Below, piece after piece: positions 25,293 through 27,283 of a stretch of DNA of 64,000 bases; within the stretch, counting starts at the first letter, position 1, and every line of letters begins with the position of its first letter. The notes under the pieces are model-generated. The model had not been told where the DNA came from. It did no database searches and saw nothing but the letters and a program-made list of their open reading frames with translations. Source of the DNA: Eledone cirrhosa (taxonomy: Eukaryota); the NCBI GenBank assembly GCA_964016885.1, contig OZ024740.1, positions 344,534,001-344,598,000 on the forward strand. Direction: 5' to 3'. Made by a program: the position numbers and the translations under genes.

Positions 25293-27283
25293 GGAAAAAG
25301 TATGTCCCCGACGGGAGAGCTCAAGCCGTTTCGACGGCTATTTCTGGACTACTTCTTTTCTACCTATGTAAGCTAGAGTTTCCCCTAACTTATACGGCAA
25401 GTGGAGGGAATCACCTCTTGTCTACCCACCCGGATCGTTATGGGGTTTGAGGGCGAGGTACGTCCTACGCAATCTGTGTTTGCATGAGGTTGCCAGTTCG
25501 TTTTTCTTGTTTAGGAGATGGTCCTTCGAAAACAGCATTTGTAATGTTTCCTCCGAGCATAAGTTATACGGACGGCGTCCTCCCTTGTAAGAGTTAGCTC
25601 GGGACATTAAGCTCCACGTGAGATTGCAGGTTATATTATTATCTTTGAGGTCCCAGATGTGGCCCGAAAGTATAGTGGCATGTCGCCGGACTGGGTTCCG
25701 GAAAGCCAAGTTCCGGAAAGCCAAGTCTTAAAGTCACAAGCGGTTAATCCTATATAAGCTTTGTTGGAGGTGTCCATCCTCACGTTGCACTGTTAGATCA
25801 CGTTACGATCTCGGCATCTGTTGTTCAGGGGGCACGTAGATCTATCAGGGCAGTTACACCTCCTGGTTGGCTCTCCACTGCTGTCTAGTTTGTTTCTTCC
25901 ATAGGGGTTGAGATTTTTGTTGTTTGAGGAGACGATGTTTTGTGCGAAGTTAGGTGTGGTGCTGTAGGAGAGTTTGATGGTATTTTTGTTGATTATGTTG
26001 TGGAAACGGTGTTGTAGTGGGAAGTGTTTTTCGAGGAGCCTAAAGAAGATTTTCCCGATAGGTGTTCCCACCTCGGCATTGTGGGGAGGATTGAACCACG
26101 TTACGTTGCGTGAGCGGCGGTGTGGCCTGCTGGGTCCGATAAGGGAAGCAGGATAAAGGGATATTTCCTCCCGGAAGCCACTCCGCTTGAGGGCTTGGTT
26201 TTAATGAGGCGCATGTTCGTCGAATATCGGACAAACGAGATATGCGGATGGAGGTGTTTTTAACCAGGTTATTGATCATGTTTCTAGGATGGTTAGAGCG
26301 GCGGTGGATGTAGTGCAGGTTGTCGTTTGGTTTCCTGTGTGGGTAGTACAGACCATTTTCGAGGTTAAGGGCAACGTCCAGGAAATTGACTCGGGTTAGG
26401 GACGTTTTTAGGGTGATATTAAATCCCCCAGTCCCGGAAGAAGTTGATTTGTTGTTTACACGGACCCGGTCTGCACTACTGAGGTTGTACCCTTTAAGGG
26501 TAAGGAGCCCATCATCTCGGTACAATCCACCGCCGAATGCAGGAAACATTTCGGTGAGTTTAAATAGTAGGAATAATCCTATAAGATCTGTGACCTCGGC
26601 CGAATCCGTCGCGCACATACTGACGTCGAGGGGGAGTCGGGAGCTCTGTTTATCCACTTGGAGTTGTCGAAAAGTAGGACTGTCTTCCTGGCGTGGAGAA
26701 TGACATTTCTTTCCTGGTCAGTGATGGGTGTGAGTGTTTCGGCAAAGTCCAAGGCGGCCGTAAGGAGCGGTAAGGTAATAGATGCATAGTAACTCTCTAT
26801 GTCGAACTGGAGGAATTTTGTGTCTCGTTTGTCCTCCATATTCCTGAACCATGAGATTGCATCCTGGGTGCTGACCCATAGGCTAAGTCTCGCGTTTTGC
26901 TTAACACTTGGTATAACGCGGTCTTGGATCTTGTTACTGATTCTCCCTATGTCCGACTTCGTTGGGTTTATATTATAAGCCTGAAGCATGGTATGCGGTC
27001 GAAGTCGGATTTGTGCTCCTTCAGTATGAAGTACGGAGTCCGTGGGTCTAGGGGTTCAGTGCGGTCGGCGACCCCGAGGCTGGAGGTAATTTGTTGTCCA
27101 TCTCGATTTATGTCCTCGATAATTGAATGGTTAGCCTTTTTATAGGTGGAGTTTAGGCTGCTCCTGATCAGTGTGTGGTATCTGTCGGGGTTGACGAAGT
27201 AGAGGTTTCCAGTATTGTCCGAGTGCACCATGGTGTCGTGGTGTTTTCATACTCTGTTATTTTGCTACGGAGTTGTTGTAGGA
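25293..27283 (-). mobile_element. Penelope-like element, longest copy: RT plus GIY-YIG pseudogene with frameshifts
   Basis: RT motifs LQFDIESYYASI, DVSMCATDSAEVTDLIG, GLYRDDGL, NFLDVALNL; linker CNCPDRSTCPLNNRC; endonuclease end IWDLK..NLCSEE..LLNKKNELATSCKH; (TA)n on both sides. Confidence 0.92.
25300..25352 (-). ncRNA. Hammerhead-like motif family 1 in the PLE 3' end (sense strand)
   Basis: AGTA-GTC-CAGAAATA-GCCGTC-GAA-ACGG-cttGAGCTCtc-CCGT-C-GGGGAC-a-TACT. Confidence 0.5.

What the first reader, a model, noticed from the sequence alone, without database searches (positions are those of the whole stretch)
25300..25352. Dispersed hammerhead-shaped motif with non-canonical core (CAGAAAUA) at the HHR position of a PLE
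Seen: three separate copies (4213-4266 minus, 5378-5430 plus, 25300-25352 minus) and a diverged foldback copy (51361-51469) share GAAA, helix III ACGGC/GCCGU with a self-complementary GAGCUC loop (one substitution at 4213), a GUC triplet and a closing GUCC/GGAC-type helix. The three non-foldback copies all read CAGAAAUA where CUGANGA belongs and have only a 1-2 bp helix II. The 25300 copy is sense, about 70 nt after the GIY-YIG stop. Identical deviation in separate copies argues for a family consensus rather than decay. Inference: an atypical, perhaps dimeric, hammerhead variant, or a catalytically dead fold kept as an RT/packaging signal. A competing hairpin AGCCGU-CGAA-ACGGCU could act as a switch.
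Basis: partly seen in the sequence, partly recalled or inferred. Interest (0 to 1): 0.75.

Follow-up and report, generated by a model that had tools for sequence, protein, structure and literature searches.

The report
Half-ribozymes mark a retrotransposon's likely start
The odd motif is the cut-off back half of a longer self-cutting-RNA (hammerhead) motif of a known variant type in a Penelope-like jumping gene, and most sampled short copies break off at nearly the same base, which likely marks where the element's RNA begins, inside its own ribozyme.

Summary
The motif is real, but CAGAAAUA is not a catalytic core. The window copies are 5'-truncated 3' halves of a complete type I hammerhead in the 3' UTR of a Hydra-clade Penelope-like element. 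Intact copies carry the core about 45 nt upstream. Of 6,151 genome matches spanning both halves, about 4,691 read UUGANAA (the published U3-A8 variant), 1,414 C3·A8 and 7 CUGANGA. AAAUAGCCG is the 3' strand of a long helix II that covaries between two families. The scan had noted this U3-A8, long-stem ribozyme on other DNA of this genome (e1-9560118). Not found in notes or papers searched: 79 of 100 positionally sampled copies begin in a 16-nt zone around the A of TTAGT in loop II. A divergent family peaks on the same A (10 of 30). Copies that contain the ORF start mostly pass this point (16 of 18). That A sits in an initiator-like context. Most likely an internal promoter makes RNA that starts mid-ribozyme, and the short copies are run-off cDNAs. 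No RNA or cleavage data.

The parts
25291..25350 (-). 3' half of the family A hammerhead: starts at the A of TTAGT (25350), then helix II 3' strand, GAAA, helix III, GUC (predicted cut after 25310), helix I 3' strand; no tail; ends in (TA)n
25351..25358 (-). 8-nt purine-rich linker where the half-ribozyme is joined to an internal point of the 3' UTR; about 790 nt of UTR, including the 5' core, are absent (template jump inferred)
25359..27285 (-). 5'-truncated, frameshifted Hydra-clade PLE ORF (DKT, RT, CxCx5C linker, GIY-YIG without CCHH; stop ends 25422) and the first 63 nt of the 3' UTR
4204..4263 (-). 3' half-ribozyme, family A, no-tail arm, starts one base after the hotspot A
5380..5526 (+). 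3' half-ribozyme (5380-5435) plus about 90-nt PLE tail (5436-5526), family A tail arm; possibly the partner of 4204-4263
51352..51409 (-). family B half-ribozyme, one arm of a two-armed (foldback) insertion
51410..51540 (+). family B half-ribozyme starting at the hotspot (AGTTCGG), with a decayed tail remnant at 51479-51540

Best explanation
The window motifs are 5'-truncated 3' halves of a complete U3-A8 type I hammerhead motif of a Hydra-clade Penelope-like element, and their shared break point likely marks the 5' end of an element RNA that would be transcribed from a promoter inside loop II. Shown in sequence: intact copies read CCCC-UUGANAA-G..CGGCUAUUU-(about 35-nt loop)-AAAUAGCCGUC-GAAA-CGGC-(GAGCUC loop)-GCCGUC/GGGG. 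Copies end at two fixed 3' points, with or without a tail of about 90 nt, in (TA)n. Most short copies start near the A of TTAGT and are joined back to back. Inferred: RNA starting at that A carries only half a ribozyme, which folds into the AGCCGU/ACGGCU hairpin and would not cut, and has a 231-nt leader to the first ORF ATG. The reverse transcriptase would prime at the two internal sites from both DNA ends, run off the RNA 5' end after about 60 or 150 nt, and leave two-armed short insertions. Now and then it would jump to another RNA 3' end, as in the 25300 copy. Long copies would come from a second template without that end: an RNA circle, or a read-through transcript cut by the complete ribozyme. 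Odds: half of a U3-A8 hammerhead 0.95; break point is an RNA 5' end 0.7; that end is a transcription start 0.55; complete ribozyme cleaves in vivo 0.6.
For: Complete copy L028 folds by minimum free energy into helices I, II and III with core and GAAA unpaired. Genome counts: 3' half 27-mer 15,951; 5' half 4,517; both halves 6,151; reversed-pattern controls 0. Position 7 takes all four bases, as in hammerheads. Helix II: 3 of 10 pairs change on both sides between families A and B; G10.1-C11.1, A15.1-U16.1 and C15.2-G16.2 pair in 34 of 34 rows. 5' boundaries of all 100 listed matches (first 26 Mb of C1), in nt upstream of GAAAC: 4 at 0-8, 79 at 9-24 (mode 18 = A of TTAGT, 13 copies; 31 at 17-19), 7 at 25-60, 0 at 61-80, 10 beyond 80; 78 of 90 truncated copies have an inverted partner arm. 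Family B (first 30 of 2,838 matches): 10 start exactly at the A, 21 at 13-20, although there the A lies in a predicted unpaired bulge. ORF-start copies (30 of 40 exact matches): 18 reach the zone and 2 stop there, versus 79 of 96 (Fisher p 1e-8), so the sequence is not an intrinsic block. The A is a perfect YYANWYY, with MTE 7-9/12 and DPE 4-5/6 at the required spacing; no other A among 283-381 in 1,150 nt equals it on all three scores in 4 of 4 loci (consensus from PMC4581360 Table 1). Five loci join internal element sequence directly to the hotspot, and 5 of 11 joints with listed letters in public contigs land on 1365/1366 of L191, the hotspot A and G. Precedent: internal promoter in the Penelope pLTR (PMC2377424, passages); internal RT priming at two sites and uncleaved RNA as substrate (PMC11167929, parts 1-2 of 4).
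Against: No RNA end, transcript or cleavage was observed. Helices I and III show essentially no covariation (0 of 4 and 1 of 5 pairs, the latter in one row). The helix II signal is largely one between-family event counted many times; 113 of 500 shuffles reach the number of two-sided pairs. RNAalifold recovered helix II but not I or III, and family B copy L205 did not fold as a hammerhead. The break zone is broad (9-24 nt), was set after seeing the data, and microhomology can shift boundaries; two arms of one insertion are not independent. The ORF-start sample is one subfamily, while the 100-copy sample mixes several. No excess G before the A that would suggest a copied cap (10 G, 11 C, 2 A of 23 copies at position 18; read). 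Promoter consensuses come from fly and mammal, are degenerate and were scored post hoc; by summed score another A ties with or beats the hotspot in 3 of 4 loci. Full-length copies from a capped monomer should also end at the A, and mostly do not, so a second template has to be assumed. 1,414 copies with an unpaired C3·A8 core amplified, so cleavage may be dispensable. The A-rich linkers in L002 and L003 were selected by a query that contained the window's linker.
Confidence: 0.55

Rival explanations
1. The RNA 5' end is real but is made by processing, for example a host or element nuclease cutting loop II, or cleavage at the AG of TTAG/CCAG that resembles a 3' splice site, and not by transcription initiation.
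For: It explains the pile-up and the free passage in long copies equally well. TTTAG preceded by pyrimidines resembles an acceptor (sequence), and PLE pLTRs carry introns (PMC2377424, passages).
Against: The boundary mode is at the A, 5' of the AG, not after it. No constant upstream exon or leader is joined in 100 + 30 copies. The initiator-like context fits the +1 position.
Confidence: 0.12
2. The RT stalls on the long helix II, or on protein bound there, early in the reaction; the site is a pause, not an RNA end.
For: The zone lies in helix II or loop II of the predicted fold and is 16 nt wide.
Against: 16 of 18 ORF-start copies pass it. Arms with and without tail stop at the same place. In family B the same A is unpaired and the distal stem differs, yet the peak is sharper.
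Confidence: 0.18
3. The short copies descend mainly from a small non-autonomous, SINE-like RNA (half-ribozyme plus tail) transcribed from earlier short copies, so the shared start tells little about the autonomous element's own RNA.
For: Short copies far outnumber ORF-start copies (15,951 vs 40 exact matches to different patterns), and they retain the downstream promoter-like elements.
Against: Junctions differ from copy to copy, several helix I subfamilies and two families share the point, and ORF interiors are joined to the same point. It still needs a start at the A, so it overlaps with the best explanation.
Confidence: 0.12
4. One reading: a stand-alone hammerhead with a CAGAAAUA core, or a dead fold selected as a signal.
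For: CAGAAAUA is identical in three window copies and lies just before GCCGUC-GAAA.
Against: Intact copies have a proper core upstream and pair AAAUAGCCG in helix II. Family B replaces it with GGAUCUAGCUG and changes the partner strand.
Confidence: 0.03

Closest known systems
U3-A8 PLE hammerhead of Schistosoma mansoni Cercyon (Cervera and de la Pena 2014, PMC4209133; parts 1-2 of 4 read)
   Same: Type I topology, U3-A8 in place of C3-G8, G10.1-C11.1, palindromic loop 3, place in the pLTR, many dispersed copies from truncated PLEs, some in opposite orientation.
   Different: Helix II of 10 bp or more with a loop region of about 35 nt (7-8 bp in their min-HHRs); a stable 5-bp helix III, so a monomer fold is predicted; G follows A9 directly with a bulge after the first pair. 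A truncation hotspot inside the ribozyme was not seen in the parts read.
Hydra clade of C-terminal EN+ PLEs (Craig et al. 2021, PMC8557442; section 11, passages, supplement parts 1-2 of 59 read)
   Same: RW(R/K), DKT, CxCx5C linker, no CCHH, CxxC and CxH near the C-terminus, (TA)n target, inverted 5'-truncated copy, one-sided tail.
   Different: All 26 Hydra-clade rows of their File S2 have a CTGANGA core with loop 2 of 3-10 nt; here the core is UUGANAA with a long helix II. The tail is about 90 nt rather than 30-40, and the unit is about 3.1 kb.
Poseidon PAc of Anolis (Frangieh et al. 2024, PMC11167929; parts 1-2 of 4 read)
   Same: Two internal RT start sites bounding the tail; AT-rich target; ribozyme cleavage not required for insertion in vitro.
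   Different: The parts read report no fixed 5' stop; there the ORF starts inside the HHR, here 231 nt downstream of the hotspot.
Drosophila virilis Penelope internal pLTR promoter (Schostak et al. 2008, PMC2377424; passages read)
   Same: TATA-less Inr/DPE-type promoter inside the pLTR.
   Different: There the start lies 46 nt before a 75-nt intron that ends at helix I (PMC4209133), so the whole HHR is transcribed; here the inferred start splits the ribozyme.
Minus-strand strong-stop DNA of LTR retroelements (recalled from textbook knowledge, no call)
   Same: Works like it if the model holds: internal priming near the RNA 5' end, short run-off cDNA, then transfer to an RNA 3' end; the 41 nt from the A to the GUC would be a terminal repeat.
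   Different: Target-primed at genomic DNA, no tRNA primer, no integrase; products are integrated directly.

Membership tests
Type I hammerhead (complete copies) | Three helices around the core | tested here: met
   MFE of L028; helix III pair P 0.75-0.98 in 5 of 5 family A copies, 0.00 in family B copy L205; 93.5% of cells paired in 34 rows
Type I hammerhead (complete copies) | Canonical C3-G8 core CUGANGA | tested here: not met
   7 of 6,151
U3-A8 hammerhead variant | UUGANAA with GAAA and NUH | tested here: met
   6,151 minus 1,414 minus 46 = 4,691; GUC in most of 88 distinct complete copies
Type I hammerhead (complete copies) | Covariation in helices | tested here: inconclusive
   helix II 3 of 10 pairs two-sided; helix I 0 of 4; helix III 1 of 5 in one row
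Type I hammerhead (complete copies) | Self-cleavage after GUC | not testable with these tools
   needs in vitro assay or RNA ends
Type I hammerhead (window copies) | 5' core half and helix I 5' strand present | tested here: not met
   absent in all four window loci
Minimal dimeric PLE HHR | Absent or 1-2 bp helix III needing a dimer | tested here: not met
   5-bp helix III; the palindromic GAGCUC loop is present, so dimers remain possible
Hydra-clade PLE | RWK, DKT, CxCx5C linker, no CCHH, CxxC/CxH in C-terminal EN | tested here: met
   RLRWR, HSDKTG, CNCPDRSTC, CNLC, CKH in translations against section 11; RWK reads RWR
Hydra-clade PLE | (TA)n target, inverted truncated copy, one-sided tail, pLTR tandems | tested here: met
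   (tail in 48 of 100)
Hydra-clade PLE | Placement in RT phylogeny | not tested
   no tree built; Pfam gave no hit for the three window ORF pieces
Non-LTR retrozyme | Non-coding tandem units each with a complete HHR | tested here: not met
   complete HHRs sit in the 3' UTR of a coding element; short copies lack the core
MITE / DNA foldback transposon | Symmetric ends and a shared internal junction | tested here: not met
   arms are unequal (tail on one) and junctions differ between copies
Inr-dependent internal Pol II promoter | Inr at +1 with MTE/DPE at fixed spacing | tested here: inconclusive
   perfect YYANWYY, partial MTE and DPE, post hoc
Inr-dependent internal Pol II promoter | Capped RNA 5' ends at that base | not testable with these tools
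   needs CAGE or 5' RACE

The most novel reading that the evidence does not exclude
This PLE starts transcription inside its own hammerhead, so promoter elements and ribozyme share bases (GAAA of the core doubles as the +19 to +22 MTE/Bridge-like motif). The mRNA begins with a self-silenced half-ribozyme and ends at the cut of the complete one, giving a 41-nt terminal repeat. Tens of thousands of two-armed short insertions are integrated strong-stop cDNAs, and strand transfer or circularisation across that repeat is how pseudo-LTRs are regenerated.
Probability: 0.35. Interest if true: 0.72.

Novelty: new variant of a known kind. Interest (0 to 1): 0.45.

Why it matters
What remains bears on an open point: how PLEs regenerate their pseudo-LTR and what their hammerhead is for (stated as unresolved in PMC2377424 and PMC8557442). 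A fixed cDNA stop that long copies bypass gives a single base to test by CAGE or RACE and predicts two RNA templates. In practice it also warns that half-ribozymes and long-loop U3-A8 forms are missed or misread by standard descriptors (for example spacer 7-17 nt and cuganga in PMC8557442).

Tried and rejected
Rfam scan: only microsatellite-driven miRNA hits below gathering scores among the 150 of 178 rows shown; no hammerhead. SECIS or a minus-strand structure: rejected by inspection, since it is antisense to the ORF and the complete fold is on the sense strand. HDV-like ribozyme or type III hammerhead cutting at the hotspot: no fitting core found by inspection once the upstream core explained the motif. 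Spliced-exon junctions: no constant upstream partner. Cap-derived G: not enriched. RNA evidence: no RNA holder listed; the two runs laid are contigs of unknown kind from one study and may be the source sample, and their depth step at the hotspot (161,584 to 4,139,284 and 354 to 13,501) is not a copy number. Co-folding a half with a cut complete copy gave mixed pairing, not a clean trans hammerhead. Pfam: no hit for three ORF pieces. Lunse et al. on small PLE hammerhead variants (PMC5785218) is not held; I saw only its title in a reference list, and it may describe related cores. Searches that found no paper on a start or strong stop inside a PLE hammerhead; on U3-A8 kinetics. Supplements of PMC4209133 and PMC11167929 and parts 3-59 of the PMC8557442 supplement were not read and may bear on novelty. 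No rows were dropped from the 100-, 30- and 30-copy samples; the 34 rows of alignment A1 were hand-picked to cover subfamilies.

Full report
Observation. The three copies and the foldback are present at about the stated coordinates and are not chance (3 matches including the query vs 0 in 5 shuffles). None has a perfect helix III, GGAC follows the GUC only at 25300, and the 4213 copy has two substitutions. The window lies in a 3.0-Gb genome.

What the motif is. A first genome search returned many back-to-back pairs and three loci (L009, L020, L028) in which element sequence continues upstream. The complete stretch of L028 folds by minimum free energy into a type I hammerhead with the core and GAAA unpaired. 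Exact-pattern counts in the genome are 15,951 for a 27-nt 3' half, 4,517 for the 5' half and 6,151 for both halves together, each with 0 for the reversed control. Among the 6,151, 46 have G8, of which 7 are canonical CTGANGA, and 1,414 have C3 with A8, leaving 4,691 U3-A8. U3-A8 is the variant described in Schistosoma Cercyon PLEs (PMC4209133). CAGAAAUA is therefore the end of loop II and the 3' strand of helix II. The window's 51361 foldback belongs to a second family with 146 complete and 2,838 3'-half matches, in which helix II reads CAGCTAGAT/ATCTAGCTG. On 34 hand-picked copies, 3 of 10 helix II pairs change on both sides, while helices I and III are conserved but do not covary. RNAalifold found helix II only, and one family B copy did not fold as a hammerhead.

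The element. Tandem copies show the order ORF end, about 860-nt 3' UTR, hammerhead, about 90-nt tail, then the next ORF. The protein has RWR, DKT, CxCx5C, CxxC and CxH and no CCHH, the Hydra-clade signature (PMC8557442 section 11); no tree was built. The 26 Hydra-clade rows in that paper's File S2 all have CTGANGA and short loops, so this ribozyme form is new for the clade as published there. The 25300 copy is a 5'-truncated, frameshifted ORF whose 3' UTR is joined after 63 nt, through an 8-nt linker, to the half-ribozyme; hence the 72-nt distance.

The break point. All 100 listed matches were fetched and their 5' boundaries mapped: 4 at 0-8 nt upstream of GAAAC, 79 at 9-24, 7 at 25-60, none at 61-80 and 10 beyond 80. 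The mode is 18, the A of TTAGT. 78 of 90 truncated copies have an inverted partner arm and 48 of 100 carry the tail. In family B, 10 of the first 30 start exactly on the same A and 21 at 13-20, although the distal stem differs and the A is predicted unpaired. Among 30 of 40 copies with the ORF start, 18 reach the zone and only 2 stop there (p 1e-8 against 79 of 96). The samples differ in subfamily mix, arms of one insertion are not independent, and the zone was set after seeing the data. Five loci join ORF or UTR interiors directly to the hotspot (the A-rich linkers in two were selected by my query), and 5 of 11 joints with listed letters in public contigs land on its A or G (one study, possibly the source sample). 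The A is a perfect mammalian-type initiator with partial MTE and DPE matches at the required spacing; no other A equals it on all three scores in 4 of 4 loci, but another ties with or beats it by summed score in 3 (consensus from PMC4581360). No cap-G excess was seen.

Mechanism. Shown: anatomy, counts, fixed ends, the pile-up and its bypass in long copies. From the literature: PLEs have an internal pLTR promoter (PMC2377424), prime reverse transcription at two internal sites that bound the tail, and can use uncleaved RNA (PMC11167929). Priming from both DNA ends runs off this 5' end and gives two-armed short insertions; occasional jumps give deleted copies like 25300. Long copies need a template without this end, such as the circle proposed in PMC4209133. 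A 1,414-copy group with unpaired C3·A8, in full register in the 14 loci examined, suggests that cutting may not be needed for spread.

Novelty and verdict. I found no paper or scan note on a start or strong stop inside a PLE hammerhead (56, 63, 77), but a key paper on PLE hammerhead variants was not held and several supplements were not read. Papers seen: PMC4209133 and PMC11167929 parts 1-2 of 4; PMC8557442 passages, section 11, supplement parts 1-2 of 59; PMC2377424, PMC4581360, PMC6765202, PMC7229834, PMC7151607 passages; bioRxiv 10.64898/2026.07.22.740005 part 1 of 5. The strong-stop comparison and the hammerhead numbering are recalled knowledge. Class: new variant of a known kind; interest 0.45, resting on a directly testable clue to PLE replication.

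Noticed in passing
genome-wide, e.g. L290-L303: A group of 1,414 matches, largely one or two subfamilies, has CUGANAA (C3 opposite A8, no Watson-Crick pair) and yet amplified; a small subfamily has U3 with G8 (39 matches).
   Followed up: partly
window 27500-27527 (-): Canonical CTGATGA hammerhead with very short helix III in the 3' end of another PLE-like family, about 150 nt before (TA)n.
   Followed up: no
window 24081-24109 (-) and 24313-24860 (-): CTGAAGA hammerhead-like motif downstream of a different GIY-YIG fragment with CCHH-type cysteines (Pfam PF01541, E 0.00016).
   Followed up: no
window 45081-45105 (-), 15481-15504 (+), 4602-4626 (-): Further CTGANGA...GAAA motifs followed by short GTC-containing stems; probably hammerheads of other repeat families.
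   Followed up: no
window 19213-20034 (-) and 17137-17388 (-): Fragments of other Hydra-like PLE ORFs, 30-48% identical to this family.
   Followed up: no
window 13435-13998 (+), 51498-51872 (+): GIY-YIG fragments of other PLE types seen in stop-to-stop frames.
   Followed up: no
window 60531-63789 (+): Broken gag-protease-RT-RNase H-integrase reading frames of a Ty3/Gypsy-like LTR retrotransposon, judged from motifs.
   Followed up: no
L039, L044, L187: Deletions between the two GCCGTCG direct repeats of the ribozyme (helix II and helix III 3' strands are identical), suggesting template slippage; the same duplication makes the competing hairpin possible.
   Followed up: no
window 7336-7989 (+): 217-aa frame with A/R/E/T-rich repeats ending near a YDP..C..C motif, resembling a Helitron N-terminal region (recalled resemblance).
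   Followed up: no
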